Of a stretch of 64,000 nucleotides of DNA, positions 4,533 to 48,861 are shown piece by piece; within the stretch, counting starts at the first letter, position 1; each line of letters begins with the position of its first letter. The translations under genes were made by a program, and so were the position numbers. This stretch comes from Candidatus Omnitrophota bacterium (lineage in GTDB: Bacteria > Omnitrophota > Gorgyraeia > 2-01-FULL-45-10), in assembly GCA_041650935.1 (NCBI GenBank), contig JBAZKH010000006.1:29505-93504 (forward strand), given 5' to 3'. The notes below the pieces were generated by a model. That model saw only the letters and a list, made by a program, of their open reading frames with translations, did not search any database and had not been told where the DNA came from.

Positions 4533-4570
4533 CCGTATCCCTTGTTTTTCATCTATGCTCTGCCGCAATT

Positions 4571-4933
4571 ATGCCTAAATTAAAGAGTGTTAGAAATGTA
4601 ATCATTTTAGTCATGCTCGGCATCTGGACGCTGATTTTGGCGACGCCTTTTTCCGAAATCTTGGGTATTGTTCCGGACGGTTCAAGGGAAAGCGAGCAGG
4701 TCTTAGATGAGCTTATGTCGACGCCTTTCGACATAGCCGAGAAAACATTAAAAGAGTATTCCTGTGGGGTACAATTAAAATCTTCGCTTCAAAATACATG
4801 CGCTTTTTCGCAAACCCACAATTTCAATAACGAATCAATATCATGCAGCGCTGAATCGAAACCATTCCGCGAGAATTCAGTGTTTCGCGTCATGCCCAAG
4901 CTTTTTCAGTTATTCTCTGTTTACCGCTTTTGA
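4571..4933 (+). CDS. Hypothetical protein with N-terminal signal-anchor
   Basis: Hydrophobic N-terminus VIILVMLGIWTLILA. No recognisable domain. Confidence 0.3.
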   Translation: MPKLKSVRNVIILVMLGIWTLILATPFSEILGIVPDGSRESEQVLDELMSTPFDIAEKTLKEYSCGVQLKSSLQNTCAFSQTHNFNNESISCSAESKPFRENSVFRVMPKLFQLFSVYRF

Positions 4934-28438: not shown

Positions 28439-28440
28439 AG

Positions 28441-29550: not shown

Positions 29551-30821
29551 TAGTAAATCCTCCTGTCTTTACGCCGAAGCCGTGGAATAGCGTGGAAAAT
29601 GGCTCCATGGGGCCTTATGTCTTGGCTTCGTATTTGAGAGCCAACGGCGAGGAGGTTGCGCTGTTCGATTTTCTTACGGGAAGGAGGGGACTTGACGGAT
29701 GGGAAGATGTAAAGGTGGAAAGGGTCGCAAGGGCCGGTAATTACCTGGAGGAGCACCTTCAGAAGCGAATATATTATGCCGGCGCAAGTGAAAGGCACTA
29801 TATCGATTACCTTAAGGCCTACAAGCCGGATGAGGTATGGGTGTCGTGCCTTTTCACTTTCTACTGGGAAGGGGTCAAGTTTGTCTACGATGCCACAAGA
29901 GACTTTAACCCTTTAATCAAAATAAAACTGGGCGGTAACTATCCGACGCTTTGCCCGAGTCATGCGAGAGAGAACTTTCCGTGCGCGGATATAGTGGTTT
30001 CGGATCCGTGCGATATGAAGAGGTTTCAGAATATCGATATCGGGTTATACAGGGCTATCCCGCGGATGTTTCCGATACTTACCTCCGTGGGGTGTCCTTT
30101 CTCATGCGCATGGTGCGCGGTGCCTAAGCTTGAAGGCAGTACCATGAAGTTTAAAGATTCTTATGATGTGGTTTCGGATATCGAGGAAAAGTACCATTAC
30201 GGCATCAAGTCCTTCAGATTCATCGATTCTCACCTCCTGGCCGACTACGAGACGCATTTTAAGATAATCCTGGAAGAGCTTATAAAGAAGCCGTGGCGGG
30301 CCGAGCTTCATTCTTACGGAGGGCTTAATCCTCTTTATATAACGCAAGGCATACTCGAGCTCATGGCCGAGGCGGGATTTGTCAGGATCCAGCTTCCTAT
30401 CGAGACGATCAATGAAAATATACTGGAAAACAATAAGAGGGCCGTTTCGGCGATGAGGTGGGCGCTTGCAGTATGGAAACTTCGCAGGATTAAGAATTTT
30501 GAGATTACAAGCTATGTCTTATGCGGTATCCCGGGCCAGACTATTAAGGATATTTATAGGACGATCAATTTTGTAGAGGATCACGGCGTTACACCTGTGC
30601 CGTTATTTTTTACGCCTATACCCGGAACCCGATATGAGGACACAAGGCCTCTCGAGGACCTGCATCCGTACCTATTTCCTTACGCGTCAGGCGAGATGCC
30701 GGCTTCGGAACTTGAAAGAATACAGTCGAATTACTATACCGGGGGTATTCATGTTTCGGAAGCGATAACGGGGCCCAAGACCGTCTACGAGTCAGGGCCC
30801 GCGGTAAAGGTGGCAAGATGA
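29532..30821 (+). CDS. B12-binding domain radical SAM enzyme (class B, possible methyltransferase)
   Basis: N-terminal Rossmann-like B12-binding region (KILIVNPPVF...GPYVLASYLRANGEEVALFD). rSAM motif GCPFSCAWC (Cx3Cx2C). Overlaps the upstream rSAM gene. Confidence 0.75.
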   Translation: MRKKILIVNPPVFTPKPWNSVENGSMGPYVLASYLRANGEEVALFDFLTGRRGLDGWEDVKVERVARAGNYLEEHLQKRIYYAGASERHYIDYLKAYKPDEVWVSCLFTFYWEGVKFVYDATRDFNPLIKIKLGGNYPTLCPSHARENFPCADIVVSDPCDMKRFQNIDIGLYRAIPRMFPILTSVGCPFSCAWCAVPKLEGSTMKFKDSYDVVSDIEEKYHYGIKSFRFIDSHLLADYETHFKIILEELIKKPWRAELHSYGGLNPLYITQGILELMAEAGFVRIQLPIETINENILENNKRAVSAMRWALAVWKLRRIKNFEITSYVLCGIPGQTIKDIYRTINFVEDHGVTPVPLFFTPIPGTRYEDTRPLEDLHPYLFPYASGEMPASELERIQSNYYTGGIHVSEAITGPKTVYESGPAVKVAR

Positions 30822-32516: not shown

Positions 32517-33023
32517 ATGCTGTTTTTCCGAATAGTAAAATTTATAAGAGGCGTCCTGAAGACGGGGCAGACATACTCTAATCATCAGTATGACGACGGC
32601 TATTATCAGAAAGGCCTCCCGAAATACAACGACAGGTTTGTAGATAATCAGGACGGTACCATAACCGATAAGATCACCGGGCTTATGTGGGTAAAAGAAG
32701 TCTCGGCGTTGGGAGCGCCTTTTAATGCCGTCATGAACTGGGAGAGCGCCCTCAATAACTGCGAGAGCCTTGTTTACGCGGGGCATTCCGACTGGAGGGC
32801 TCCGAATATCAATGAAATACAAACTCTCATCGACTTCGGGAGGGCTAACCCTTCGATAAACACGGTCTTCTTCCCGAATACTCCGTGGGAGGGATTCTGG
32901 TCTAGTTCAGCTCTCTCGACTAACGGCTGGTTGGTCTGGTGCATATCTTTTGCGGACGGTTACAGATTTAATACGGGTCAGGACAGCAATTATTACGTCC
33001 GCCCCGTAAGGAATGCGTTTTAA
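32517..33023 (+). CDS. DUF1566 (Lcl C-terminal domain-like) protein, tail fibre-associated
   Basis: DKITGLMWVKE...WESALNNCESL...HSDWRAPNINEIQTL is the characteristic DUF1566 signature. Confidence 0.55.
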   Translation: MLFFRIVKFIRGVLKTGQTYSNHQYDDGYYQKGLPKYNDRFVDNQDGTITDKITGLMWVKEVSALGAPFNAVMNWESALNNCESLVYAGHSDWRAPNINEIQTLIDFGRANPSINTVFFPNTPWEGFWSSSALSTNGWLVWCISFADGYRFNTGQDSNYYVRPVRNAF

Positions 33024-33900: not shown

Positions 33901-34251
33901 ATGACCAAGAAAGAGTCGAGAAAAATTCTCATGGATATTCATGAGAAGCATTACGGCAAGAATGGCTCGATTAAGAACAAGAAAGCGAAAAAGACCGCCG
34001 AGGATCGCAAGATCGCGGAGGCGGTTTCTCCGGTACTCGCCAATAAGAGCCGCAACGACCTTATGCTCGAGGCAAAAGCCAAGGGCATAAAAAACTTCCG
34101 CATCCTTAATAAGGCGGAGCTTTACAAGGTCCTCGATCCGGCTACGATTCAGCAGGAAATAGACGGCATTGTAAGCGACGCCGTTATAAGGTGGAAGTCA
34201 GGGTGGTCGAAGAATAAGACCGCCGGCAAGAAAGAGGAAGGCCAGAAATGA
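33901..34251 (+). CDS. Rho_N-like (SAP-like) small basic protein
   Basis: SRNDLMLEAKAKGIKNFRILNKAELYKVLD resembles the Rho termination factor N-terminal helix-extended-helix motif. Confidence 0.35.
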   Translation: MTKKESRKILMDIHEKHYGKNGSIKNKKAKKTAEDRKIAEAVSPVLANKSRNDLMLEAKAKGIKNFRILNKAELYKVLDPATIQQEIDGIVSDAVIRWKSGWSKNKTAGKKEEGQK

Positions 34252-36464
34252 AATACGAAGACAGGGAGCTTTTAGGTCGCATCATTCACTATTATCACAC
34301 ACGCCTGTTTGACGAGCAAAGGGCCCATGAATATTTAAAGAAGACGGGTCTTAGTAATCAGGAGACGTGTATACAGTTTAAGTTGGGATTCACCGGGGGT
34401 CTTGCAAGCGCCGTTCCGGACGATCCCGAGACGCTGAACAAGCTTAAACGGCTGGGGATACTCGGTGAGGACTTAAACGAGACGCTCCCTGATTCGCTCG
34501 TAGTTCCGATAAGAAGCGAGGGCAAGACTTACGCGAGCGTCATGGGTATAAGCTTAGCGGATAACAAGGAGAAGTTTCTGCCCGGGAACGAAGCCCTGTT
34601 TAATATGGAAGCGCTTAAGGCATCCAAAGAGATATATCTTACGGATTCGATCCTGAACGCGCTTCTACTATATACGATAGGGTTGCGCGAGACGGCATCG
34701 GTAATAGGGGAGGCTATTACCGATGTCCATCTCAAGCTTTTCGAGAAGTTTCAGACGAAATCGGTAACGCTTCTTGTTTCCGGTAATAATCTTCAGCGGT
34801 TTTCCAAGAAGATTAAGTCTCAAGGCATCGCCGTGGGCTATATCGATATCGATCCGAAGTCGCTTCCCCGGCTTATGCTGGAAGGCCTTAAGAAGGACTA
34901 TTGTTTAAGTCTGGTAAAAGAGCCGGAGATTAACCCGGCCGAGCCCATTATAGAGGAAAGGGGCGAGGAGATATTCTACGAGTTTGAGGACAGGCGTTAC
35001 AGGATAAGGAGACTGGATCCCTTCAGGCTCGATGCCTTAAGGGTAAATCTTAAAGCCACGCATCAGAACCTGTGGCATCTCGATACGATCGATCTATACG
35101 CCGAGCGGCAGAGGCGTAATTTCGTAATGATGGCAAGGAAGCTTATCAGGCTCGATCAGGGTTTTCTTTTTCAGGATATATTGAAGATAACCGAGGACCT
35201 GGAGGATAGGCAGGCAAAAATAATATTAGAGAAGAAGGAGAAGTTTCAGGAGATGCCGCCTCACGAGAAAGACGAGGCGATGACGTTCTTAAGGAGTGAC
35301 GATATCGTATCCGAAATATTGAAAGACTACGCCGGTCTCGGGATCGTGGGCGAAGAGACGAATATTCTCACAGGCTATTTTACGCTTATTTCCCGAAAGC
35401 TCGATCATCCGCTCTCAGTCATTCTTTGCGGGTCTAACGTATCGGGCAAGGATGCTTTAAAGGATGCGCTTCTTGATACGGTGCCGGAGGCCGATATCGA
35501 ACGCTTCACGAAACTTTCGCCTCAGGTGCTCTTTTACAGGGATGAGCTCTCGCTTCAGCACAGGATCCTTGCGATAGACGACGAGGGGTCGCTTAAGGAA
35601 CTTAACGCTATCCTTACCAGTCTTCAAAATAAGGGCCTGTCGTATTCGGTTACGCATAAAAGCCCCGAAACGGGCAAGCTTAGGAGCCACGATTATAAGG
35701 TAAAAGGGCCGGTGTCGGTTTTGGCGAGCGTATCCGATACGAAACTCATTAAAAATTTATCTGCCCGATTTATCGTACTGAAAGTGGACGAATCCAGGGA
35801 TCAGACGAAGAAGATTCTCTCAAAGCAACGTGAGGACGATACTCTTCAGGGGATATTGAAGGATAAAAAGGGCGAAGCGATAAGGCGCAAGCACCGTAAC
35901 GCGCAAAGGCTTCTTAAATCCTTAAAAGTCGTTAATCCCTACGCTAAGGACCTTGAAGGCGCGGATGGTCTGCCGGATGCCCGGAGCATGCAACCGAAGT
36001 ACTTAAGTCTTATTAAGGCGATATGCCTCTTAAGACAGTGTCATAAGGAGATTAAGCGCATAGAGGATTCGGAAGAGGAATATATAGAGGTGGACCCGAC
36101 CGATATCGAGATCGCAAACGACGTTATGGCCGGGATGCTTAAGTCGGCGCAACCTCTTTCGGAAGAGGCAGAAAAGGCCTTAAGGGATATCGAGGACCTC
36201 ATTGCCGAGAAATCAGGCGTCCATAACGCGTCAAAAGAGGGCATTGCGTTCACTATTAAAGAGCTGGCCGCATTCTCGCACCTATCCGATTACAGGGCGC
36301 GTTCCGTGACAGATGAGTTGGCCGAATCGGGCAGGATCGAGCTTGTGGCAGGATCCAACGGCAAGACGATGCAATATAGCCTCTCGGGGCCGGACAGGAA
36401 CGTTATACCAGAGCTTTTGAAACCTTTTGAAAATCAGGTCAAAAGGTCTGGCGTTCGTAAGTAG
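34248..36464 (+). CDS. Phage replication protein, DnaG-like (degenerate Toprim) N-terminal domain plus P-loop helicase-like C-terminal region
   Basis: LVVPIRSEGKTYASVMGISL...KFLPGNEALFNMEAL parallels the DnaG catalytic core (FPIrd.Grvigf...KYlNsPet.lf.K...Lyg). Later GSNVSGKD is P-loop-like. 738 aa. Confidence 0.45.
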   Translation: MKYEDRELLGRIIHYYHTRLFDEQRAHEYLKKTGLSNQETCIQFKLGFTGGLASAVPDDPETLNKLKRLGILGEDLNETLPDSLVVPIRSEGKTYASVMGISLADNKEKFLPGNEALFNMEALKASKEIYLTDSILNALLLYTIGLRETASVIGEAITDVHLKLFEKFQTKSVTLLVSGNNLQRFSKKIKSQGIAVGYIDIDPKSLPRLMLEGLKKDYCLSLVKEPEINPAEPIIEERGEEIFYEFEDRRYRIRRLDPFRLDALRVNLKATHQNLWHLDTIDLYAERQRRNFVMMARKLIRLDQGFLFQDILKITEDLEDRQAKIILEKKEKFQEMPPHEKDEAMTFLRSDDIVSEILKDYAGLGIVGEETNILTGYFTLISRKLDHPLSVILCGSNVSGKDALKDALLDTVPEADIERFTKLSPQVLFYRDELSLQHRILAIDDEGSLKELNAILTSLQNKGLSYSVTHKSPETGKLRSHDYKVKGPVSVLASVSDTKLIKNLSARFIVLKVDESRDQTKKILSKQREDDTLQGILKDKKGEAIRRKHRNAQRLLKSLKVVNPYAKDLEGADGLPDARSMQPKYLSLIKAICLLRQCHKEIKRIEDSEEEYIEVDPTDIEIANDVMAGMLKSAQPLSEEAEKALRDIEDLIAEKSGVHNASKEGIAFTIKELAAFSHLSDYRARSVTDELAESGRIELVAGSNGKTMQYSLSGPDRNVIPELLKPFENQVKRSGVRK

Positions 36465-36510: not shown

Positions 36511-37494
36511 TTGATGGAAAATCACGTTAAAGAGTTAGGCATAAAAGAACTGGCGGATTTTAAGCTGTATTTTAAGCTGCAAGGCTACGCCGATGGCAGC
36601 ATCCATCAATACGTCACCTATATGAAAGAATTTCTGCAGTATATAAAGGAAAAATCGATAGAGAAGTTGTCCGAGGTTACGCCGGAGGTAATATCCAAAT
36701 ATCAGCTGTATCTATCCACTGTTAAGCGCAAGCGCCCGGACAAAAAGAACCTGTCGATGATAACGCAGATCCATAAGATTGTGGCGATAATGCACTTCTT
36801 CAGATTTTTGGTAAGAGAGAAAAACTATCTATACGATCCCACGAGCCACATCAAGCTAAGAACCCCTCCGAGAAAGCGCGTCAGGGAGGTATTGTCCAAG
36901 AAGGAGATGTTAAGGCTCTTAAACGCCCCCAACCCCGAAACTCCTTTGGGGTTACGGGATAAGGCGTTACTGGAGCTGTATTATTCCTGCGGCATAAGGA
37001 ATACCGAATCGAGGATGCTTACGGTAAAAGACGCTGACCTCGAGAATAGACTCGTAAGGATCCGGTTTCCGAAAGGCGGAGGAGATCAGGGAGGAGATCA
37101 GACAGTACCTATCGGAAGGATCGCAGCATTGTATATAGACGAATATATAAGAAATGCCAGGCCGAAGCTCCTTAAAAACGATTTGGAAGAGACGCTGTTT
37201 CTGTCCAAGAACGGCAAGCCCTTAAGTGACGGCATGCCGGCGCATATAGTCCAGAAATACGCCGCAATCGCCAAGATTAATCGGAAAACAGACGCTCATA
37301 CTTTAAGGCATACGTGCGGAACTCATTTATATGATAACGGCGCTGATATAAGGTGCATTCAGGAACTACTCCGTCACAAGTCATTGGATACAACCCAGAT
37401 TTACATCGACGTCAAGGCCACGAAGTTGCGCAAGGTCTTGGAGAAGACCCATCCCAGGGAAAGGGGAATAGTATATGCTCCCGCTATTGAATGA
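36511..37494 (+). CDS. Tyrosine recombinase (integrase family), trio member 1
   Basis: HTLRHTCGTHLYDNGADIRCIQELLRHKSLDTTQIYIDV carries the R-HxxR-H-Y catalytic signature. Confidence 0.85.
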   Translation: MMENHVKELGIKELADFKLYFKLQGYADGSIHQYVTYMKEFLQYIKEKSIEKLSEVTPEVISKYQLYLSTVKRKRPDKKNLSMITQIHKIVAIMHFFRFLVREKNYLYDPTSHIKLRTPPRKRVREVLSKKEMLRLLNAPNPETPLGLRDKALLELYYSCGIRNTESRMLTVKDADLENRLVRIRFPKGGGDQGGDQTVPIGRIAALYIDEYIRNARPKLLKNDLEETLFLSKNGKPLSDGMPAHIVQKYAAIAKINRKTDAHTLRHTCGTHLYDNGADIRCIQELLRHKSLDTTQIYIDVKATKLRKVLEKTHPRERGIVYAPAIE

Positions 37495-38425
37495 GTTTAA
37501 GGACGGGCTCGAAAAGGAAGGCCTTCGTCAGTGCACGATCGAGAATATGGTAAGGCACGTTAATTTTTTCGCGAAATACTACAAGTCTTTCGATATGAGA
37601 AAGGTCTCGAGTAAAGATATCAAAAAATTCAAAATATACATCATGCTGGAGCATATTACCGAGAAAGGCAAAAATAAAGGCAAGAAGATATGCGTCGAAT
37701 ATGTCATATCCATACTATGTTCTTTGATGAAATACTTCAAATTTTTGGCGCAGAGAAGACATATATTTTTCGATCCGACGCTTGACTTGGAATTCCCGAA
37801 GAAGAATCCGCATTTTCCGGATTATATACCGAGCGAAAAAGATGTGCAGGAGCTGTTGCAAAAGCCGGATACGAATACTTACTGGGGGATAAGGGACAGG
37901 CTCTTATTTGAGCTTGCCTATACCTGTCCGCTACGAAACCAAGAACTTGGACGACTATGCATTCAGGATATCGATATGAAGGATAGATACATTTATCCGA
38001 AAAGAGAAAAAGGCGGGTATGAGTGCGGCATACCGATAACGGATTCTACGCATCAAATTTTGGAGAAATATCTTTCGATATCGCGCCCCCGGCTTTTGAA
38101 AGGAGCAAAAACCCCCACGATGACCGATAGATTGTTTATAACTATATACGGTGGTCCCTTCAAGAAGACTACCATAGACGATATATTCGCAAAATACCGG
38201 GGAGATAAGAGGATACATCCTCACTTGATGAGGCATGCCTGCGCCGTCCATATGCTGAAAGGCGGGGCAAGGATAAGGGATATTCAGGTTCTGTTGGGCC
38301 ACAGGCGACTGACCTCGACCAATCGCTATACTCGCCTGACAGCCAACGATATTAAAGACATACAAGATAAATATCATCCAAGGGAGAGGAGTGCTAGACG
38401 TGCTGCCGCTGTTGGACGAATTTAA
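37475..38425 (+). CDS. Tyrosine recombinase, trio member 2
   Basis: HPHLMRHACAVHMLKGGARIRDIQVLLGHRRLTSTNRYTRL. Overlaps member 1 by 20 nt. Confidence 0.85.
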   Translation: MLPLLNEFKDGLEKEGLRQCTIENMVRHVNFFAKYYKSFDMRKVSSKDIKKFKIYIMLEHITEKGKNKGKKICVEYVISILCSLMKYFKFLAQRRHIFFDPTLDLEFPKKNPHFPDYIPSEKDVQELLQKPDTNTYWGIRDRLLFELAYTCPLRNQELGRLCIQDIDMKDRYIYPKREKGGYECGIPITDSTHQILEKYLSISRPRLLKGAKTPTMTDRLFITIYGGPFKKTTIDDIFAKYRGDKRIHPHLMRHACAVHMLKGGARIRDIQVLLGHRRLTSTNRYTRLTANDIKDIQDKYHPRERSARRAAAVGRI

Positions 38426-40247
38426 GCAGAAGTTATTAAAGGAACACAAGCTTATAACTATGACCAACACGATAAGTATATGCTTTATGCTGGAAGACTG
38501 GTATGGGTCAGACCGCATGGAGAAGATAACATGCGAAGACCTTGATCGATTCAAAAAATATCTTATGACAGAATACATTACGCGTACTGGCGGGCATTAT
38601 CATCTTTCAACCATCGTAGCGAGGTTCGAAGGGCTAAAGAAATATTTTGCGTTTTTGATGGAGAAGAAATATATATCGAAGGACCCCATGTGCGGTCTTG
38701 AGTTCCCGAAGACAAAACCGCAACTGCCACCGTGGCTGCCTACAGAGAAAGAAGTCCGTGAGCTTATAAATAAAGTCGACGCAAGCTCGCCTCAGGGCTC
38801 GTCCGATAAGGCGGTAATCGCACTAATGTCGATCATGCCGTTAAAGAATAAGGAAGTGGGGCCACTTACGGTAGACCAGGTGGACATAGAGAATAGATGC
38901 GTATATCCTATAAAAGGATCGAAAGAGCTCGCGATACCGATGCCCGATCCTATCTTTGAAATACTGAATAAGTATATTACGAAGGATCGTTATCATATAG
39001 TCAAGTGGCTTAAAGCCCCGACAGACTTACTTTTCGTAAGCAGGCTCGGGACGGCGTTCTTTGAGTCAACGCTGAATAATATATTCTCTAGATATAACAG
39101 ATATGCTCCGCGCGAGAAGCGCATATATCCGTATCTTATGCGGCCGGCTACGGCCAACCATATGCGAAAAAGGGGAATGAAACTCGAGGACATCCATAAG
39201 ATCTTGGGCGTAAAATACAGAACCGTCGGTACCTATACAACTCTTGCCAGAAATGAAATAAGGGCGGAAGAGGAAAGATACGTGGCAAAGATACCTTTGT
39301 TCAAGGAGTTTAAAGAGAAACTCGTAAAAGACGAGTTATCCCCGAACATGATTCACAACGCTTTGAAGGCGATCATATTCTTTGCCAAGTATTTAAAGAG
39401 CGATGATATGAAAAAGATCACCCCTGCCGATATCGGAAGGTGCAAAAATTATGTTTTAAACGAGTATATTACCATCGAGAATAGAAAATTAACCGAACAA
39501 GAGGTGGCTTTGAGGTTGCGTGCTTTAAAGACATATTTCAATTTTCTTGCGGAGAGCAGGTATCTTTCGTCAGATCCGGCTGTAGATATAAAGATTCCGG
39601 ACGTCCCTCCTCGCATAAATTGGTATCGGCCGACAGATGAAGCTATAGAAGAGTTCGCATCTAGACCTGATCCGTATACATACGTAGGCATGCGAGATGC
39701 TGTGATAATACGATTGTGGCACCTTACCGCGTTAAAACCCAATGAGCATATGGATCTAAAAGTGCAAGATATAGATTTGAATAAGAAAGTGCTTTATGTG
39801 CCAGGGCCAAGACGTCGCACCTTGAAATTGGATGATAAAACATATAAGGCCGTCGAGCGATATCTTACCAAATCCAGGCCTGTATTCTTGAAGAAAGCCA
39901 AGGAGCCTACCGATAAGTTATTTATGAATGAATGGGGAGGTCCTCTTGCTCTATGTAGTATGTATGATATATTTTGGAAATATAAGGGCGACAGGAAGAT
40001 TAAACCATGCATTTCAAGGCATGCGAGGGCTCTCAAAATGTTTCGTGACGGCTCCAGCGCCGAAGAAGTTAAAAAGGCCTTAGGTTTTAGATCTATTAGA
40101 TCGTGCCAAGCTTATAAAGCGATGGTTGCGAAGGATGTAACTGGTTTCTATAAGAAGGATCGCTTTGAGGAGAAGGTCAGGCTTATTAGACGAGAAAAAC
40201 CCGCTTACCATTCAGATAATTCCAATCTTGTAACACTTCCCAAGTAG
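38391..40247 (+). CDS. Tandem double tyrosine-recombinase-fold protein, trio member 3
   Basis: Two successive recombinase modules: YPYLMRPATANHM...ILGV...GTY and ISRHARALKMF...ALGF...CQAY. Both lack the second conserved His. 618 aa. Overlaps member 2 by 35 nt. Confidence 0.65.
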   Translation: MLDVLPLLDEFKQKLLKEHKLITMTNTISICFMLEDWYGSDRMEKITCEDLDRFKKYLMTEYITRTGGHYHLSTIVARFEGLKKYFAFLMEKKYISKDPMCGLEFPKTKPQLPPWLPTEKEVRELINKVDASSPQGSSDKAVIALMSIMPLKNKEVGPLTVDQVDIENRCVYPIKGSKELAIPMPDPIFEILNKYITKDRYHIVKWLKAPTDLLFVSRLGTAFFESTLNNIFSRYNRYAPREKRIYPYLMRPATANHMRKRGMKLEDIHKILGVKYRTVGTYTTLARNEIRAEEERYVAKIPLFKEFKEKLVKDELSPNMIHNALKAIIFFAKYLKSDDMKKITPADIGRCKNYVLNEYITIENRKLTEQEVALRLRALKTYFNFLAESRYLSSDPAVDIKIPDVPPRINWYRPTDEAIEEFASRPDPYTYVGMRDAVIIRLWHLTALKPNEHMDLKVQDIDLNKKVLYVPGPRRRTLKLDDKTYKAVERYLTKSRPVFLKKAKEPTDKLFMNEWGGPLALCSMYDIFWKYKGDRKIKPCISRHARALKMFRDGSSAEEVKKALGFRSIRSCQAYKAMVAKDVTGFYKKDRFEEKVRLIRREKPAYHSDNSNLVTLPK

Positions 40248-40343
40248 TAAATTCAAACCTTATAAAAAATCGATAATACCGTCTTGTTAGAATTTGGGTA
40301 CTGGTGTCTCTATGCCTATTAAGCCTCCGTAATACCGTTTGGC

Positions 40344-42443
40344 ATGGATACTTTGATAAATGCCGGCATAAACGGTATAGTAGATGGCGAAAACCTTCCG
40401 ACACAGATTGAGGCTCTTGCCATGGCCTTTCAAACCCAGATAACATCAAAAGTTACGGCCGAAGTTATCTCTTTTAGTATAAAGCAAGCGGGAGAATTAT
40501 TAGGCGTGTCTCCCGCCCTGAGTTCGTATCTGGCGTCGGCAGGCACGGCGATCTCATCGTCATTTATAAAGAATAGTTTTCTTTCGCAATTCGACCTGTC
40601 CAATTTTGTAAAAGATGCTTTCAATAGCACGATAGTTTCGGTAGACGTGGATTTACTTGAAAACATAAACCCCGCATTCTCTGCCTTAAAGTCCGCGGGA
40701 TTAATGGGTGCCATCGAAAATATACTTGATGCCGGAGGTGTTTTTGAAGGGGCGTTCAGTATTCTTAGTAAAATAGTTCCTTCCGCTTTCAAGACGACAG
40801 GTGATTTAGTTACGGGCTTCTTTGGCGGGGCGAAGACTTTTATAGAACTTGTAACCGACTCAGGTCCGCTTGCGGCCATGAATAGCGCTCTTAATTCATT
40901 ATTTACAAGGCAAACTATCGAAACTGTGGCGGCCCAAGGCGGCGTGGAAGAGTTGCCTGTTGAGACAATATTCCTAAACGGTAAGGTTGCCCAAAAGATA
41001 ACCTTAAATGATAATGCGGCGCTATACATGGATGAAAACGGCGACCTGATATCGGTAGAAGAGAATGGTGTCACATGCACAGGTCCATTTGCCTGGACGC
41101 CCGAAGACGGGCTTAAATTAAGAAGCGGCACTGTATCGGGAAGTATGGAGACAGGCTATAACATATGGGCCGAAATAGATGACGGCTCGGCCCGGCATAT
41201 TGAAATACAGAACGCGGACGGCGAGGAGATTGTAACGATAGACCCGGAGACTACCGGCAAAACTATAGATTTGAGTACGATGTCCGTTCAGACTGTGCCG
41301 GAATTCAATTTTACCGTTCTGAACGCGATAATATCTTTTGCGAATATCTATATAGCCAAGATAAATCAGGACTTTGTGGAATCGATAACTCAAAAAGTTG
41401 CCGCCATTTCCGCCGGCTCACTATTTGGTGAGTCAAATAAATTCCTGTATACCCTGGCGAATGGTATATGTAATACTGAAATCGATCCAAATACGCCACC
41501 TCAATATATAAAAAACTTAGAGCAAGATATGGTAAATCGTGGCAATGGTGATATATCGATTAGCGACATTATCCCGGTAATACTTTATAAAGGAATGACA
41601 GAATCGTCGGACTTTAATACAGTCCTCGATGTCATTAAATGGGTAGCGGAGTCGCAAGGGGTGTATAAAGATAGCCTTACCGAAAAAGCCCGGGCTGATT
41701 TAGTCGCGTACTTTGTCGCGCATCCCTCGGAATGGAACAGGCCTATAGTGGCAATGGGATATTCTGGTGGTCTCATGCCTTTAGTTGAAGCTATGTCCTC
41801 GTCGGTGTATAATGTTAAGACGCTGGTAGGGTTAGGTGCTGCAACAGCGTATATAAAGAAAGACCTAATCCCTATTCTGTGCGACCTTACTAATTATGTC
41901 TCCAACAGAAAGGCAGACGCTGTCAGGTTTGTTCTGGAAAAACTGAATATCGGACAGCAGCTTATAAACCAGTTTGTAGAATATGTTCGTACGTATGATT
42001 CTACAAGTACGGTTATTTCAAATTCCGCAAAAGAAATTATTAAAGAAATACTGAACGTAACCGGATTGGACGAAATGACATTTCCATTCCTGGCGCAATC
42101 AAAGACCGACCTTATAGTTAACGTTTGGGGTACAAAAGACATGCTTTATGAAGTCGGCATAGCCGGGCAGAGGACGAATCTCTGCGGCAAAAACACTTAT
42201 AACATAGAGATTGTTGGTGCAACTCACTTTGACTACATGAGACGTGATGCCTTAGATGCTAAAAACCCGCCCGATACATGGAATAATACAGTGGCGAGTT
42301 TTGTGGCGGATTTAATAATAGCAAGTGAAGATAGTTATAATCTAGACAAGTTTTTAACGAAAAAAATATCGGAAGGTCTTTTGTATATGGACTATGCAAG
42401 AGGCGTATATGTTGTCCGACTTCCAGGGTGTGATATATGCTAG
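40344..42443 (+). CDS. Large protein with C-terminal GxSxG alpha/beta-hydrolase (lipase/esterase-like) region, possible lipase effector
   Basis: GYSGGLMPLVEAM (GxSxG), with a downstream ATHFDYM His candidate. No signal peptide. Confidence 0.4.
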   Translation: MDTLINAGINGIVDGENLPTQIEALAMAFQTQITSKVTAEVISFSIKQAGELLGVSPALSSYLASAGTAISSSFIKNSFLSQFDLSNFVKDAFNSTIVSVDVDLLENINPAFSALKSAGLMGAIENILDAGGVFEGAFSILSKIVPSAFKTTGDLVTGFFGGAKTFIELVTDSGPLAAMNSALNSLFTRQTIETVAAQGGVEELPVETIFLNGKVAQKITLNDNAALYMDENGDLISVEENGVTCTGPFAWTPEDGLKLRSGTVSGSMETGYNIWAEIDDGSARHIEIQNADGEEIVTIDPETTGKTIDLSTMSVQTVPEFNFTVLNAIISFANIYIAKINQDFVESITQKVAAISAGSLFGESNKFLYTLANGICNTEIDPNTPPQYIKNLEQDMVNRGNGDISISDIIPVILYKGMTESSDFNTVLDVIKWVAESQGVYKDSLTEKARADLVAYFVAHPSEWNRPIVAMGYSGGLMPLVEAMSSSVYNVKTLVGLGAATAYIKKDLIPILCDLTNYVSNRKADAVRFVLEKLNIGQQLINQFVEYVRTYDSTSTVISNSAKEIIKEILNVTGLDEMTFPFLAQSKTDLIVNVWGTKDMLYEVGIAGQRTNLCGKNTYNIEIVGATHFDYMRRDALDAKNPPDTWNNTVASFVADLIIASEDSYNLDKFLTKKISEGLLYMDYARGVYVVRLPGCDIC

Positions 42444-43201
42444 CAAGGATTCTATCTGTTATAGTGATAACAGTATTGTCATCTTCCAGCTTATTTTGTG
42501 AAGAAACATTACCATCTAGAATTGATAATGCCACTCAAAAAATTATAAAAAGAACAAATCTTGAGCGGGAAGGGCGTCTTTATGCAAAACAAGGCTTATA
42601 TGACGAGGCACTCGCGAAGTATAAAGCGGCCATGGATCCTTCCTTGCTTAATTATGACCATGAAGTATCTACGGCTAAGTGGTCTATCGAAGAAATTTAT
42701 AAGCGACAAGGGAAATTTGAGCAAGCTCTAGAAATGGTGAACGATAAGTTAAAAACTTTTAAGGCTCAAACTCCCAATGATAATATATTTACAGGAAACG
42801 ACGAGCTTGGTAAGGAACGCCTCGAACTTTTGGCGCTTATAAAAGCTCGTGACACTAAAAATAAAAAACCCATTTATGAATATATAGATTATATAAAAAC
42901 AAAATCGAAATATGCGAAATTACTTCCACCAAAAGGTTATATTACAGGGGGAAGCGATGTACTTATAGATAACCTAATCCACCTCTACGACTACCTTCAC
43001 GACTACGATGCCGGTATCGCTTTTATGGATGAAATAATCAAATACCACACCCAGCATAAGGACAAAAACCACAGGTCTGCTCATGCCAAAGATGTCAAAG
43101 AATACATCCGCGTCAAAAAGGCCTGGGAACTTGACAAAAAAACCGGCCAGCATGGACATTTGCAAGGTGTGATCCGAACCTCCGATGTAATATCGTGGTG
43201 A
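42437..43201 (+). CDS. Secreted TPR-like protein, putative cognate immunity protein
   Basis: N-terminal signal peptide (MLARILSVIVITVLSSSSLFC). Start overlaps the stop of the upstream gene by 7 nt. Confidence 0.35.
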   Translation: MLARILSVIVITVLSSSSLFCEETLPSRIDNATQKIIKRTNLEREGRLYAKQGLYDEALAKYKAAMDPSLLNYDHEVSTAKWSIEEIYKRQGKFEQALEMVNDKLKTFKAQTPNDNIFTGNDELGKERLELLALIKARDTKNKKPIYEYIDYIKTKSKYAKLLPPKGYITGGSDVLIDNLIHLYDYLHDYDAGIAFMDEIIKYHTQHKDKNHRSAHAKDVKEYIRVKKAWELDKKTGQHGHLQGVIRTSDVISW

Positions 43202-43228
43202 CGCAGATATAACGAGTCATGCAAAAAC

Positions 43229-43253
43229 GCCACAAACCCCTTGTGGCATTTTT
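43229..43253 (+). terminator. Rho-independent terminator GCCACAA-ACCCC-TTGTGGC + ATTTTT
   Basis: Perfect 7-bp stem, 5-nt loop and a T-run, immediately after the 42437-43201 stop. Confidence 0.6.
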
Positions 43254-43334
43254 GAAATTGACATAGCTATATCTAGGTAGTATTTGTCAAGGCTTATCCA
43301 AGTAGATAGTTTAAAAGGACACTATACGTTCATT

Positions 43335-43358
43335 TCCACAACCCCTTGTGGCATTTTT
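43335..43358 (+). terminator. Second copy of the same hairpin, CCACAA-CCCC-TTGTGG + CATTTTT
   Basis: Near-identical repeat 106 nt downstream of the first. Confidence 0.45.
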
Positions 43359-43643
43359 ATACCGGGTTAGCTTGTTTTTCCTCAAAAAGTAGGGTATAAT
43401 TATAATTTATCCGATTTACATATGTTATTAATTGGCTCAATAGACATTGTTAAAGGGTAATAACATATGATAGCATGCTTTTATGGAAGAAAGCATGACG
43501 GTTTTTAACGAAGTCATGGATTATCTCAAGATATACAAGATTATCGAGCAGGAAGCTTGTGGATTTTGTTGCAAAAGAATGTCTTATGCATGGGTTGGTT
43601 AAAAAATAAGGTGTAGAGACGGTATGCGGAGAGGTATTTTAGC

Positions 43644-46222: not shown

Positions 46223-46786
46223 ATGTTGTTATGTGATATGGTATTTTTAATTTTTAGTATTCTACTCTGTGCTTATATCATTATAGACTTTATACTGAAT
46301 ATTAAGAATGAATGGCAGGAGAAAATAATTTTTCGGTGGAGTCAACCGCTAGCTATTGCATTGCTGGTAGTAATCGTAATAAGTACTGTATCCGAACGGT
46401 ATATTGCTAAGAGAGATATCAATTATGTAATATCGTTGGTAGGTATCATATTGTTTTTAACAGCCTTTTTGTTACGTATTTGGTCAAAAAAAAGCTTAGG
46501 ACAATATTATAGCTCGCATATCCAAGTAAAAAATAATCATCGCATTGTAGAGAATGGGCCTTACAAAATAATGCGGCATCCTTATTATTTCAGTATCATT
46601 ATCGGCGCCCTAAGTTTCCCCCTAATAGTGAATGCGTATTTTTCATTTTGTCTCGCTCTTATTACTATTGTTCCGCTCATTGTAATTAGGTGTTACATAG
46701 AAGAAGCAATGTTATTGCAAAGATTCGGAAACCAATATCGGAAATATATGGAAAAGACAAAGCTATTTTCTAATAGAGAGAATTAA
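46223..46786 (+). CDS. ICMT/PEMT-family integral membrane methyltransferase
   Basis: Multi-TM protein with the diagnostic NGPYKIMRHPYYFS motif. Confidence 0.6.
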   Translation: MLLCDMVFLIFSILLCAYIIIDFILNIKNEWQEKIIFRWSQPLAIALLVVIVISTVSERYIAKRDINYVISLVGIILFLTAFLLRIWSKKSLGQYYSSHIQVKNNHRIVENGPYKIMRHPYYFSIIIGALSFPLIVNAYFSFCLALITIVPLIVIRCYIEEAMLLQRFGNQYRKYMEKTKLFSNREN

Positions 46787-48861
46787 TGAATTATTACATC
46801 ATTTCCAGCTTAGCCATCATATTATGCGGTTTTGTTTTAGCGGCCTTTGTATTATTCAAAAACATGAAGGGGCTTATCAGCAAGCTATTTGTTTTTTGGA
46901 CAATGAGCGGTGTAGTTTGGGGTTTTGGATTGTATAAATTATTTACCGCCAATTTTCATAATGAGGCACTATTTTGGGGTAAGTTCTCTCATGCCGGTGC
47001 AATCTTTATTCCAGCCTTCTTCTTGCATCTTGTTTACTCCTTAACAAATAAAAAAGCACAAAAAATAGTATTTATAGGATATGCCATTAGTTGTACGTTA
47101 TTGTTGTGTGATTTCACGCCATTATTTATAAAGGATGTAGTAGCAAAGCTGAATTTCAAATATTATTATGTTCCCAACATAGCTTATCATTTCTTTACAT
47201 TATATTTCTTTTCAGGAATAACGTATGCTCATTATGTAGCGTATAAACAATTTCGTCTCGAAAGTGGGTTAAAACGTAAGCAACTCAAATGTTTTTTAAT
47301 AGCTTTTGTTCCCGCTTTTTTCGGTGGCTTTACAACATTTTTATTGGTTTATAACATTCCTATCCCCCCAATAGGATTAATCTTAATACCCCCATATACC
47401 ATTATAATCGCATACGCAATCGTGCGTCACCAACTAATGGACATCGAAGTCATAATAAAGAAGACCCTTGTCTTTGCGACGCTATTTACGCTGGTCTTCG
47501 GTATCTTTGTCGGAGTAGCGCTTCTATTACAGCATGTTATCGGCGCCGGCAACAACCTGTTAGGCTTTGCCATAAGCTCTCTTATTATCGTCTTCACCGT
47601 CCGGCCGCTTGAGATATTTCTTATAAAAATCACCGATCGCTATCTATTCCAAAAGAAATACGACTATAAGCATCTCATAAGGGAATTTATGGATGAGTTA
47701 AGGACGATGGTCCTGAATACTGCCGGCATAGCGCAGTCAACGATAGATTTTCTCAATACCTCTATCCGTCCCACGATTGCCGCGGTCTTTTTGTATAATA
47801 AATTTACGAATAAATACGATCTTATAACTTCCAGCGATTTTAAAGAGAAAGATTTTAAGATAGCAAATGATTCAATGACTATCAAAGCATTAGGCGAGAC
47901 CGGCAAGATCATAAAAATAAACGATGACAAGCTGATCTCTTTGAAAGAACGGGATCAATTCATAGTGTTAGGTATCGGATTAATAATCCCCCTTTTAATA
48001 CATAAAGAATTGATAGGCCTTCTTTGCTTGGGGAAGAAAAAATCAGATGAAGATTATGCGGAAGAAGATATTGAAACATTATCCGGCCTGTCGGGCGCTT
48101 TAGCGATCTCGCTTAATAATGCTCAACTTTTTGACGAAAGGGCTGACGCGGAGAAGAGGGCGCTCGTTGGCACAATTGCGACAGGCATTAATCACGAGAT
48201 TGGCAACCCTCTTAATATAATAACGATAAAACTCGACACTTTCAGGATATTGGCAAAAGAAGGTTTACTCGCCCATAAGACTAAAGAAGAAATAATAGAC
48301 GAAGTCGATAAGATGACAAAGATCTGTCTCGATAGCACCCAGAGGATCGCCGAAATAACAAAGCAGGTAGCCGAGTTTGCCAAACCGGATAAGAAACTGA
48401 TTTTCGACAAGGTCAATGTTAATGAAACTATCGATGAAACTATAGTTTTTCTTAAGCATGGAATGATTCTGGATGCCGGGAAGATCGAAAAAAATATTTT
48501 GTGCGATCCTGTTTACGCGATAGCGGACAGGGGCCAGCTAAAGCAGATCCTTTTTAACCTGATTAAGAATGCTTCTCACGCGATCGATAATGAAACCGGT
48601 AGAATAGTGGTAAGCGTTGACAGGAATAACGTGGGAGAGATTATCATTAAAATTACTGACAATGGTCATGGGATGCCGAAAAATGTTTTAGAGAAGGTAT
48701 TCACGCCATTTTTTACAACTAAAGAACCGGGAAAAGGCACCGGACTTGGCCTTGCCCTGGTGAAAATTATGATAGATAGAAACAACGCCAAAATTAAAGT
48801 TGAAAGCGAGGAGGGGGAGGGGACAACCTTTACCCTGGTTTTTAAGGGAGGCCTATTATGA
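46786..48861 (+). CDS. Sensor histidine kinase, paralog of ORF 104-2311 (7TM-like N-terminus, GAF-like middle, HisKA/HATPase_c)
   Basis: Shares VRHQLMDIEVIIKKTLVFATLF and ITDRYLFQKKYDY blocks with the first kinase. H-box INHEIGNPL. C-terminal GHGMP...GKGTGLGLALV...GTTFTLVF. Confidence 0.8.
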   Translation: MNYYIISSLAIILCGFVLAAFVLFKNMKGLISKLFVFWTMSGVVWGFGLYKLFTANFHNEALFWGKFSHAGAIFIPAFFLHLVYSLTNKKAQKIVFIGYAISCTLLLCDFTPLFIKDVVAKLNFKYYYVPNIAYHFFTLYFFSGITYAHYVAYKQFRLESGLKRKQLKCFLIAFVPAFFGGFTTFLLVYNIPIPPIGLILIPPYTIIIAYAIVRHQLMDIEVIIKKTLVFATLFTLVFGIFVGVALLLQHVIGAGNNLLGFAISSLIIVFTVRPLEIFLIKITDRYLFQKKYDYKHLIREFMDELRTMVLNTAGIAQSTIDFLNTSIRPTIAAVFLYNKFTNKYDLITSSDFKEKDFKIANDSMTIKALGETGKIIKINDDKLISLKERDQFIVLGIGLIIPLLIHKELIGLLCLGKKKSDEDYAEEDIETLSGLSGALAISLNNAQLFDERADAEKRALVGTIATGINHEIGNPLNIITIKLDTFRILAKEGLLAHKTKEEIIDEVDKMTKICLDSTQRIAEITKQVAEFAKPDKKLIFDKVNVNETIDETIVFLKHGMILDAGKIEKNILCDPVYAIADRGQLKQILFNLIKNASHAIDNETGRIVVSVDRNNVGEIIIKITDNGHGMPKNVLEKVFTPFFTTKEPGKGTGLGLALVKIMIDRNNAKIKVESEEGEGTTFTLVFKGGLL

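What the first reader, a model, noticed from the sequence alone, without database searches (positions are those of the whole stretch)
36511..40247. Recombinase trio: three overlapping tyrosine recombinase genes, the third a tandem double-recombinase fusion
- **Arrangement:** three consecutive same-strand tyrosine recombinases overlap by 20 and 35 nt. The first two carry complete R-HxxR-H-Y signatures.
- **Third gene:** 618 aa, containing two recombinase-fold modules back to back. Each retains the Arg/Tyr context but has the second conserved His replaced (V and F).
- **Resemblance:** this matches recombinase-in-trio (RIT) elements and Tn554 TnpA/TnpB (TnpB is about 630 aa), rather than a single phage integrase.
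- **Position:** at the right end of the prophage, where an integrase is expected.
- **Alternatives:** the prophage may use a multi-subunit recombinase for integration, or a RIT/Tn554-like element has inserted at the prophage end.
Basis: partly seen in the sequence, partly recalled or inferred. Interest (0 to 1): 0.6.

Follow-up and report, generated by a model that had tools for sequence, protein, structure and literature searches.

The report
Phage integrase trio with fused pseudo-recombinase
A prophage in a Candidatus Omnitrophota genome carries, at its very end, two intact Xer-like recombinase genes plus a third gene that fuses two degenerate copies of the second one; this looks like an undescribed multi-part integration module and is not a RIT or Tn554 transposon.

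Summary
Three co-oriented, overlapping tyrosine-recombinase (YR) genes lie at 36511-40247, and the third holds two complete recombinase modules.

**The fusion is genuine.** Full-length homologues (603-615 aa, 55-65% identity) exist in four other loci. Both modules are under purifying selection as strong as in gene B.

**The RIT/Tn554 reading fails direct tests.**
- Tn554 TnpB has a single catalytic domain and no similarity to C (E=1.6).
- RIT and Tn554 proteins form a distant outgroup.
- All four modules are Xer-like; the closest solved structure is XerD.

**Anatomy.**
- A and B carry the full R-K-H-R-H-Y catalytic set.
- Both C modules arose by duplication of a B-like gene. In every homologue they have Arg-I→Lys, His-II→Tyr/Phe/Lys/Cys and His-III→Val/Ile/Leu/Phe. 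Only Arg-II and Tyr remain.

**Context.**
- The block primase-A-B-C is conserved across mosaic phages.
- Variants exist with A+B only (plus an Xis-like HTH gene) and with a single-module C'.
- The phage/host junction (attR) lies about 70 nt after C, next to a truncated polymorphic-toxin-like host gene.

**Best reading.** A+B form a heteromeric integrase, and C is a probably non-catalytic DNA-binding accessory subunit.

**By-product.** Distant fused double recombinases with intact active sites occur in small primase-bearing elements inserted at the core/tip boundary of Rhs toxin genes.

The parts
34248..36464 (+). Primase-like gene (738 aa; PF27228 domain, weak DnaG similarity). It is always directly upstream of the recombinase genes.
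   Evidence: DNA and protein homology between the window and L001/L005/L011 begins exactly at this gene.
36511..37494 (+). Recombinase A: a Xer-like tyrosine recombinase with one core-binding and one catalytic domain and the full R-K-H-R-H-Y set. The likely start is ATG 36514.
   Evidence: best solved match XerD 1a0p, 1.2e-35. It is 72-73% identical in L001/L011/L135.
37475..38425 (+). Recombinase B: a second intact Xer-like tyrosine recombinase that overlaps A by 20 nt.
   Evidence: It is 57-61% identical in L001/L006/L011.
38391..39287 (+). Gene C, module 1 (likely start GTG 38400). A B-derived recombinase module with Arg-I→Lys, His-II→Tyr and His-III→Val. Arg-II, the beta-hairpin Lys and Tyr are kept.
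   Evidence: Purifying selection is shown.
39288..40247 (+). Gene C, module 2, joined to module 1 with no linker. It has Arg-I→Lys, His-II→Cys and His-III→Phe, and lacks the beta-hairpin Lys. Arg-II and Tyr are kept.
   Evidence: Its closest unfused relatives are P0007-P0010.
40250..40316 (+). Conserved non-coding end element of the phage (TCAAACCTTRT ... TCTTGTnAnAAT ... TACTGGTGTnnnTATGCC). It contains 2-3 direct CTTGT-N3-4-AAT repeats.
   Evidence: About 79% identical in L001. Also present in L005 and L011, there after variable cargo genes.
40296..40325 (+). Inferred attR core: conserved phage arm GGTACTGGTGT, central region CTCTATGC(C), then a host arm. Conservation between prophages stops after TATGCC.
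   Evidence: four-way comparison. Host-protein homology starts at 40323.
40344..43201 (+). Host DNA next to attR. The 699-aa gene equals the C-terminal two-thirds of a Peptidase_C39 polymorphic-toxin-like protein. It is followed by a 254-aa TPR gene.
   Evidence: The 699-aa protein is 48% identical to residues 334-1027 of P0160. The TPR protein is 59% identical to the gene that follows P0161 in the phage-free locus L023.
4570..4577 (+). Weak candidate attL core TATGCCTA, in the intergenic region before the 120-aa ORF 4571-4933. It is at chance level and unproven.
   Evidence: A second candidate, TCTCTATGCC, lies outside the window at position -3179 (L009 4535).

Best explanation
The three genes are the integration/excision module of a temperate siphovirus-like phage of a Candidatus Omnitrophota bacterium. 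They are not an inserted transposon.

**Proposed roles.**
- A and B are two different, catalytically complete Xer-type tyrosine recombinases.
- They are inferred to work as a XerC/XerD-like heteromeric enzyme on a simple core site at the phage end.
- Gene C was made by duplicating a B-like gene twice and fusing the copies head to tail.
- Both of its modules keep the fold, Arg-II and the tyrosine, but have lost Arg-I (now Lys) and both histidines.
- C is therefore most likely a non-cleaving or barely cleaving single-chain 'dimer'.
- It would bind DNA next to or within the attachment site and act as an architectural or directionality subunit.
- That is the position and possibly the role taken by a small Xis-like HTH protein in relatives that have only A and B.

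**Shown.**
- The gene anatomy and the residue pattern.
- The descent of C from B.
- Purifying selection on both C modules.
- Linkage to the primase gene.
- The junction to host DNA about 70 nt after C.

**Inferred.**
- The A+B heteromer.
- Loss of catalysis in C.
- The accessory role of C.
For: **The surrounding element is a prophage.**
- Terminase, portal, major head, tape measure and tail J genes are present.
- A, B and C are the only recombinases in the window.

**The block is conserved as a unit.**
- Primase-A-B-C occurs in the window, L001/L002, L005/L011 (an Omnitrophota MAG) and L006.
- Homology starts at the primase gene and ends at the end element.

**Sequence affinity and catalytic residues.**
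- A and B are Xer-like with full catalytic sets.
- The substitutions in C are identical in kind in all four homologues.

**C descends from B.** In the tree, B, C module 1 and C module 2 form one clade, and A sits with XerD.

**C is maintained by selection.** pN is 0.14-0.31 in the C modules versus 0.20-0.34 in B, with saturated synonymous sites.

**Variants show that C is an add-on.**
- L016 has primase-A-B followed by an HTH_17 protein and no C.
- The P0157 contig has A'-B-C' with a single degenerate module and the same 26-nt overlap.

**The junction is next to C.**
- The conserved phage element ends at 40316, and host-protein homology starts at 40323.
- The 699-aa and TPR proteins are 48% and 59% identical to a phage-free host cassette.
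- They are unrelated or only 26% identical to the genes at that place next to sister phages, whose own proteins are 55-73% identical.
Against: - No attL, attP or empty attB could be found, so integration by these proteins is not demonstrated. The two attL candidates are at chance level.
- The 5' third of the interrupted host gene was not found at the left end.
- Both C modules keep an invariant Tyr, Arg-II and a conservative Lys at Arg-I, so residual or altered catalysis cannot be excluded.
- The structure model of C was too poor to use (pLDDT 61).
- The conserved end element could be a promoter or operator and not a recombinase binding region, although the sigma-70 scan did not flag it.
Confidence: 0.6

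Rival explanations
1. One A, one B and one C form the synaptic tetramer, so each of the four positions is a different module reading a different half-site of attP and attB. Only A and B cleave, so one pair of strands is exchanged. The resulting Holliday junction is resolved by replication, which would explain the conserved neighbouring primase, or by host enzymes.
For: - There are exactly four modules in three genes, and a tyrosine-recombinase synapse has four protomers.
- C is a covalent pair.
- C keeps Tyr and Arg-II and is as conserved as B.
- Linkage to the primase is invariant.
- One-strand mechanisms are discussed for SE elements (PMC10214605).
Against: - Relatives with A+B only (L016) and with a single-module C' (P0157 contig) exist, so four modules are not required.
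- The zero-length linker between the C modules may not allow the geometry of two neighbouring protomers. This could not be tested because the model was poor.
Confidence: 0.15
2. A RIT-like or Tn554-like transposable element has inserted at the end of the prophage.
For: There are three co-oriented overlapping tyrosine recombinase genes, and the third has about the size of TnpB.
Against: - TnpB has one catalytic domain, and blastp against C gives E=1.6.
- RIT and Tn554 proteins are an outgroup.
- A has a single core-binding domain, whereas RitA has two (PMC8138268).
- C lacks the complete motif that all Rit proteins have (PMC3414803).
- There are no flanking inverted repeats.
- No TnpC/DUF6262 gene is present.
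- The block is collinear with the primase gene in phages only 55-73% identical.
Confidence: 0.03
3. The recombinases do not integrate the phage. They serve replication instead: Xer-like resolution of genome multimers of a plasmid-like or replicating prophage, encoded next to the primase.
For: - The closest known relatives by sequence are XerC/XerD multimer resolvases.
- Adjacency to the primase is constant.
Against: - The phage is inserted in the chromosome with host genes on both sides.
- No other integrase or transposase is present in it.
- The host junction lies directly beside gene C, the usual place for an integrase next to attP.
Confidence: 0.1
4. The 699-aa and TPR genes are phage cargo driven by a conserved phage promoter (the 70-nt element). 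The true prophage end would then lie after 43201, so gene C is about 3 kb from the end.
For: - The element always precedes a member of the same protein family.
- An independent assembly breaks its contigs at 43570-43585.
- No 5' half of the host gene was found.
Against: - The two proteins match a phage-free host cassette at 48% and 59% identity.
- They match the equivalents beside sister phages at 26% or less.
- Homology to the host protein begins within 7 nt of the end of the conserved element and upstream of the start codon.
- The contig break is one of several and is not specific.
Confidence: 0.12

Closest known systems
XerC/XerD (and archaeal XerA, XerH): chromosomal Xer-type 'simple' tyrosine recombinases
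   Same: - Closest by sequence. The best NCBIfam hits for all modules are XerC/XerD models, and the best solved structure is XerD 1a0p.
- One core-binding plus one catalytic domain per module, with no arm-binding domain.
- Two different paralogues are encoded side by side, which suggests a heteromeric enzyme.
   Different: - All scores are far below the curated XerC/XerD cut-offs, for example 229 bits for A against NF002331 (cut-off 371).
- The genes are phage-encoded, next to a primase and at a prophage end.
- A third gene with two degenerate fused modules has no Xer counterpart.
RIT (recombinase-in-trio) elements, RitA/RitB/RitC
   Same: Three adjacent, co-oriented, overlapping tyrosine recombinase genes, raising the same puzzle of how three genes serve a four-protomer reaction (PMC3414803).
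   Different: - RitA has two core-binding domains, RitC has an extra C-terminal helix, and all three keep the catalytic motif.
- RIT gene overlaps are 4-8 bp.
- RIT elements are about 3.5 kb, compact and multi-copy.
- Here A has one core-binding domain, C is a degenerate double, and overlaps are 20 and 26 nt.
- There are no terminal repeats, and the block is part of a phage.
- A RIT-type trio (L020) is a distant outgroup.
Tn554 TnpA/TnpB/TnpC
   Same: One ordinary and one roughly 630-aa tyrosine recombinase encoded in tandem.
   Different: - TnpB (L021) has one catalytic domain (residues 330-505), one SAM-like domain and unrelated extensions.
- It has no significant similarity to C.
- The TnpC (DUF6262) partner is absent here.
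GInt (GinA-D) and SE (IntA, Tfp, IntB, Srap) elements
   Same: Two catalytic tyrosine recombinases plus a recombinase-fold protein with a defective active site that is nevertheless required for recombination (PMC10214605). This is the best functional analogy for C.
   Different: - GinC/Tfp lack the catalytic tyrosine and the RHRY motif, and are single proteins of a different lineage. C keeps Tyr and Arg-II and is a tandem of two B-derived modules.
- No GinD/Srap-like fourth gene was identified.
- The hosts are Gamma/Betaproteobacteria, whereas this is a phage of Omnitrophota.
- No sequence comparison was run because no reference sequences were held.
Lambda-type phage integrase plus Xis
   Same: Located at the prophage end beside the attachment site, with a cargo ('moron') slot between the integrase gene and att. 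A relative (L016) has an Xis-like HTH_17 gene after B.
   Different: - No arm-binding domain.
- Three genes and four modules in place of one integrase.
- No Xis-like gene was found in the C-containing loci.

Membership tests
RIT element | Three adjacent, co-oriented, overlapping tyrosine recombinase genes | tested here: met
   The overlaps are 20 and 26-35 nt, versus the 4-8 bp typical of RITs.
RIT element | RitA with two sequential core-binding domains; RitC with an extra C-terminal helix (PMC8138268) | tested here: not met
   A is 327 aa with one SAM-like domain (residues 15-104) and one catalytic domain. The reference RIT-type first gene is 410 aa with an extra N-terminal region. The RitC helix was not examined.
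RIT element | Proteins fall into the RitA, RitB and RitC sequence families | tested here: not met
   Blastp bit scores against XerD exceed those against the L020 trio for all four modules. In the NJ tree the trio is an outgroup. Caveat: L020 was identified as RIT-type by architecture only, and there is one reference set.
RIT element | All three proteins keep the catalytic R..H..Y motif (PMC3414803 Table 1) | tested here: not met
   Both modules of C lack Arg-I, His-II and His-III.
RIT element | Compact, roughly 3.5-kb autonomous unit with terminal inverted repeats, found in varied contexts or multiple copies | tested here: not met
   There are no flanking inverted repeats. The block is always fused to the same primase gene and phage end element.
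Tn554 family | Large TnpB: a single recombinase module with a long unrelated N-terminal extension | tested here: not met
   TnpB has one PF00589 domain while C has two full modules. Blastp of C against TnpB gives E=1.6.
Tn554 family | TnpA-type recombinase (N-terminal beta-strands, inserted helix) by sequence affinity | tested here: not met
   A against TnpA gives 39.7 bits, versus 142 bits against XerD. TnpA is in the outgroup. The structural insertions were not examined.
Tn554 family | TnpC (DUF6262) gene after tnpB | tested here: not met
   The gene after C has no DUF6262 match. Real TnpC matches DUF6262.
XerC/XerD chromosome dimer resolvases | Score above the curated equivalog cut-offs | tested here: not met
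   The best hits are XerC/XerD models, but every hit is below its cut-off: A scores 229 bits against NF002331 (cut-off 371) and 209 against TIGR02225 XerD (cut-off 330); B scores 172 against NF002331; C scores 187 against TIGR02225 over two stretches.
XerC/XerD chromosome dimer resolvases | Two paralogues acting together on one dif-like site, each exchanging one strand pair | not testable with these tools
   This needs biochemistry. Only a candidate core (40296-40325) is inferred.
GInt / SE elements | Two catalytic recombinases plus a recombinase-fold protein lacking the catalytic motif | tested here: inconclusive
   The layout is analogous. However, C keeps Tyr and Arg-II, and no GinC/Tfp sequence was available for comparison.
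GInt / SE elements | Fourth small conserved gene (GinD/Srap) | not tested
   No reference sequence was held. No conserved small gene follows C in the five loci.
Phage integration module (functional class) | Recombinase gene(s) adjacent to the phage/host junction of an integrated prophage, and the only recombinases in it | tested here: met
Phage integration module (functional class) | Matching attL/attR cores, or an attP/attB pair | tested here: inconclusive
   attR is located. Only chance-level attL candidates were found, and no empty site or attP form.

The most novel reading that the evidence does not exclude
The three genes encode a complete hetero-tetramer of four different recombinase modules (A, B, C-module 1, C-module 2), one for each half-site of attP and attB.

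- Only A and B would be catalytic, so the phage would integrate and excise by exchanging a single pair of strands.
- The junction would be resolved by replication started by the invariably linked primase.
- The system would target a defined position inside polymorphic-toxin genes, paralleling the fused double recombinases found at the Rhs core/tip boundary.
- Such a system would swap or displace toxin C-terminal domains by site-specific recombination.
Probability: 0.12. Interest if true: 0.85.

Novelty: new variant of a known kind. Interest (0 to 1): 0.6.

Why it matters
**What is unusual.** Tyrosine recombinases normally work as tetramers of one protein or, for XerC/XerD, of two. Here a phage keeps two intact paralogues plus a conserved, selected, single-chain tandem of two active-site-degenerate paralogues.
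- I found no such architecture in 50,697 phage records or 72,556 plasmid records.
- Twelve phrase queries for tandem, fused or double tyrosine recombinases found no paper describing such a fusion.

**What it offers.**
- A natural series for asking how pseudo-enzyme subunits are recruited into recombination machines: A+B, then A+B+single C', then A+B+fused C.
- A possible explanation of what a 'third' recombinase does in trio systems such as RIT and GInt, which is still unexplained.

**The related discovery.** Intact fused double recombinases sit in small primase-bearing elements at the core/tip boundary of Rhs toxin genes. This suggests a site-specific route for the long-noted C-terminal displacement of polymorphic toxins. 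Single-chain heterodimeric integrases could also interest genome engineers.

Tried and rejected
- **Long att repeats.** I searched for direct or inverted repeats between the left 9 kb and the right end. Nothing was found beyond AT-rich chance matches.
- **tRNA targets.** None in the window.
- **Assembly breakpoints as att markers.** The breaks at 6478, 33759, 43570-85 and 50899 are too frequent to be informative.
- **Host genes without the prophage.** Exact-protein look-ups returned only the same two assemblies.
- **Viral collection scans.** Scans with the end-element motif, protein C, protein A, the 120-aa ORF and the sigma-like protein gave only chance motif hits. The one relative found (L135) ends in gene A.
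- **The metagenome scan.** It added only L016.
- **The upstream 3142-aa RHS/LamG/C39 gene as the missing 5' half.** Rejected. It continues homologous to full-length proteins well past the junction position and shares no core with attR.
- **My first reading of 'Arg-I→Ser' in module 1.** This was wrong. It concerned a non-catalytic upstream RD motif, and I corrected it against XerD R148.
- **AlphaFold model of C.** The four-sequence alignment gave pLDDT 61 and pTM 0.31, too poor for fold search, so it was not used.
- **An Xis-like HTH gene in C-containing loci.** None was found. The HTH_17 gene 2.6 kb left of the window is not similar to the one in L016.
- **Simple sigma-70 promoter reading of the end element.** Not supported by the scan.

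Full report
**1. The observation**

The three ORFs exist as described: A 36511-37494, B 37475-38425 and C 38391-40247, all on the + strand.
- Pfam finds the tyrosine-recombinase catalytic domain once in A, once in B and twice in C, each preceded by a SAM-like core-binding domain.
- A module profile built from single-module relatives covers C residues 4-299 and 300-604 end to end. C is therefore two complete modules with no linker.
- A six-frame scan shows these are the only tyrosine recombinases in the 64-kb window. No other recombinase was found among the remaining phage ORFs.
- The overlaps of 20 and 35 nt hold for the longest ORFs. A GGAGAGGAG ribosome-binding site and all three homologues indicate that C starts at GTG 38400. 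That gives 615 aa and a 26-nt overlap.

**2. The fusion is real and selected**

- A word-indexed search of 5.8 billion proteins found full-length relatives of 603-615 aa at 55-65% identity.
- An exhaustive HMMER search of 1.84 billion representatives found no further close relatives.
- In every locus that could be read, C follows B with a 26-nt overlap.
- Synonymous sites between loci are saturated. Non-synonymous divergence of both C modules (pN 0.14-0.31) is no higher than in B (0.20-0.34).
- Neither module is therefore decaying.

**3. Catalytic residues**

I aligned the modules to XerD.
- A and B in all loci have the full R-K-H-R-H-Y set.
- C module 1 has K-K-(Y/F/K)-R-V-Y.
- C module 2 has K-(none)-(C/Y)-R-(F/I/L/V)-Y.
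- The pattern is the same in kind in all four homologues.
- From established knowledge of Cre, lambda Int and XerC/D, Arg-I→Lys alone usually abolishes cleavage while leaving DNA binding and synapsis intact. With both histidines also gone, loss of catalysis is likely. The invariant Tyr keeps the question open.

**4. What it is not**

I fetched a genuine Tn554 and a RIT-type trio as references.
- The Tn554 (L021) has tnpA 361 aa, tnpB 630 aa and tnpC 125 aa, followed by ant(9)-Ia and ermA.
- The RIT-type trio (L020) has genes of 410, 451 and 334 aa with 4-bp overlaps.
- TnpB has a single catalytic domain (residues 330-505) and one SAM-like domain. This agrees with Van Houdt et al., who describe a long N-terminal extension without recognisable domains.
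- Blastp of C against TnpB gives E=1.6.
- Every module scores higher against XerD than against any RIT or Tn554 protein. In a neighbour-joining tree the RIT and Tn554 proteins form a distant outgroup.
- RitA's double core-binding domain is absent from A.
- There are no flanking inverted repeats.
- Curated collections of 50,697 phage records and 72,556 plasmids contain only single-module Xer-like hits at 27% identity or less, and none to Tn554.

**5. Origin of C and the variants**

- In the tree, A groups with XerD-like proteins.
- B, C module 1 and C module 2 form one clade. B is 34-40% identical to each C module, against 23-35% for A.
- Unfused proteins of about 300 aa (P0007-P0010) cluster with module 2 and already show degenerate sites.
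- One of them (P0157) lies in an A'-B-C' arrangement with the same 26-nt overlap.
- A further relative (L016) has primase-A-B followed by a 92-aa HTH_17 protein and no C.
- This gives a series: A+B (+Xis-like), then A+B+single degenerate C', then A+B+fused double C.
- A+B is thus the core, and C is a later, retained addition.

**6. Context**

- The window holds a siphovirus-type prophage with terminase, portal, major head, tape measure and tail J genes.
- It sits in a genome identified as Candidatus Omnitrophota, both by an identical annotated protein and by a related MAG.
- Homology with the related prophages starts exactly at the primase-like gene and ends at a 67-nt non-coding element right after C.
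- In L001 and L011 two or three unrelated cargo genes lie between C and that element.
- The DNA to the right of the element is host.
  - The 699-aa protein is 48% identical to residues 334-1027 of a 1027-aa Peptidase_C39 protein found in phage-free loci.
  - The next gene is 59% identical to that protein's downstream neighbour.
  - The equivalents beside sister phages are 26% identical or unrelated.
- Protein homology to the host gene begins at 40323, and conservation among phages ends at 40316.
- attR is therefore at about 40311-40322, roughly 70 nt after C.
- Its shape fits a Xer-type core: a conserved 11-nt arm GGTACTGGTGT, a central region nnnTATGC(C), then a variable host arm. This is inference.
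- In two further prophages with detectable homology to the long forms, the junction maps to roughly the same region of the host protein family.

**7. What remains open**

- I could not find attL, attP or an empty site.
- Two short matches to the junction are candidates: TATGCCTA at 4570 and TCTCTATGCC at window -3179. Each is about what chance predicts.
- The missing 5' third of the host gene was not found. The upstream 3142-aa paralogue is uninterrupted at that position.
- The target may be a naturally 5'-truncated 'orphan' cassette of a polymorphic-toxin locus.

**8. Mechanism proposed**

- A and B act as a heteromeric Xer-like integrase/excisionase on the core at the phage end.
- C is a single-chain pair of non-cleaving modules. 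It binds DNA at or beside the site and shapes or directs the reaction.
- The conserved element with its CTTGT-N-AAT direct repeats is a candidate binding site for C.
- The role of C would be analogous to GinC/Tfp in GInt/SE elements. It may replace the Xis-like protein of the A+B-only relatives.
- The main rival is that A, B and C together form one tetramer of four different modules, with only one strand pair exchanged.

**9. By-product**

- About 40 of the best 150 representatives are 600-710-aa proteins with two matched stretches.
- In the 14 that I examined, both modules are full length, are joined by a linker of about 35 aa, and nearly all carry intact catalytic sets.
- They are annotated only generically. 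They are not orthologous to C.
- They sit after a DnaG/Toprim primase that carries the same PF27228 domain, with a divergent cI-like repressor gene.
- In those elements the fused protein is the sole recombinase.
- In L017 three such elements lie in tandem. After each recombinase gene comes an ORF holding a 71-nt stretch that is 100% identical between the elements. It encodes GARYYDPKISMWISTDPALP, the end-of-core motif of Rhs toxins, and is followed by unrelated C-terminal tips and small genes.
- This looks like site-specific insertion at the Rhs core/tip boundary. The parallel with the window's attR, which lies beside a toxin-like gene, is suggestive only.

**10. Verdict**

- The RIT/Tn554 interpretation is rejected.
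- The 'multi-subunit phage recombinase' alternative is supported.
- Phrase searches of the held literature found no description of fused tandem tyrosine recombinases.
- I rate it a new variant of a known kind, with interest 0.6.

Noticed in passing
L017 1-17968 (= L018), L019 1-11922: Distant fused double tyrosine recombinases of about 650 aa, with both modules catalytically intact, are the only recombinase of roughly 8.5-kb elements (cI-like repressor, DnaG/Toprim primase, double recombinase). Three such elements lie in tandem in L017. Each is followed by an ORF with a 71-nt 100%-identical repeat (2163-2233 and 10528-10598) encoding the Rhs end-of-core motif GARYYDP...DP, followed by unrelated toxin tips. 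In L019 the element directly follows RHS genes. This suggests site-specific integration at the Rhs core/tip boundary.
   Followed up: partly
window 40344-43201; L009 1-3393 (window -7713 to -4321): The 699-aa gene is a 5'-truncated member of a Peptidase_C39 polymorphic-toxin-like family, and its 254-aa TPR neighbour belongs to the same host cassette. A 3142-aa RHS/Laminin_G/Peptidase_C39 paralogue with three small lipoprotein-like genes lies about 4 kb left of the window. The locus looks like a toxin locus with an orphan cassette.
   Followed up: partly
L001 11849-13270; L011 7858-10773; P0157 contig (no DNA): There is a variable cargo slot between gene C and the phage end element. One relative holds a methyltransferase, DsrE and rubrerythrin. 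Another holds a Schlafen/AlbA_2-ATPase protein and a TPR protein. A third has an AbiEii gene after C'. This may be a defence or moron hot spot.
   Followed up: no
window 43224-43253 and 43329-43358: Two copies of the same terminator-like hairpin (GCCACAA-ACCCC-TTGTGGC plus a T-run, with a 19-nt exact repeat) lie 105 nt apart, after the TPR gene.
   Followed up: no
window 43483-43608: A small ORF (about 40 aa, MEESMTVFNEVMDYLKIYKIIEQEACGFCCKRMSYAWVG) lies directly upstream of a ketoacyl synthase, a B12-binding radical SAM enzyme and a PEMT-like methyltransferase. It might be a modified-peptide precursor or just a leader.
   Followed up: no
window 104-2663 and 46786-49220: Paralogous HisKA_7TM/GAF histidine kinase plus response regulator pairs lie on both sides of the prophage. 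Each follows lipid-related genes (GMC oxidoreductase and epimerase on the left; FabF, radical SAM and PEMT on the right).
   Followed up: no
window 6353-7272: Two overlapping ORFs in different frames (6353-7162 and 6421-7272). The second matches only positions 56-160 of the C5 cytosine methylase profile, so the phage methylase gene may be frameshifted or truncated. An independent assembly also breaks at 6478.
   Followed up: no
window 28345-30821, 32517-33023 and 8624-9916: The prophage carries two radical SAM genes (one with a B12-binding domain), an Lcl_C-domain protein and a ParB-N6/N4 DNA methyltransferase fusion.
   Followed up: no
L009 5052-5216 (window -2662 to -2498): A 54-aa HTH_17 (excisionase-type) gene lies left of the window, just right of the 10-nt match to the attR junction (TCTCTATGCC at window -3179). 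It is not similar to the HTH_17 gene of L016. There could be a second, tandem integrated element between -3179 and about 4570.
   Followed up: partly
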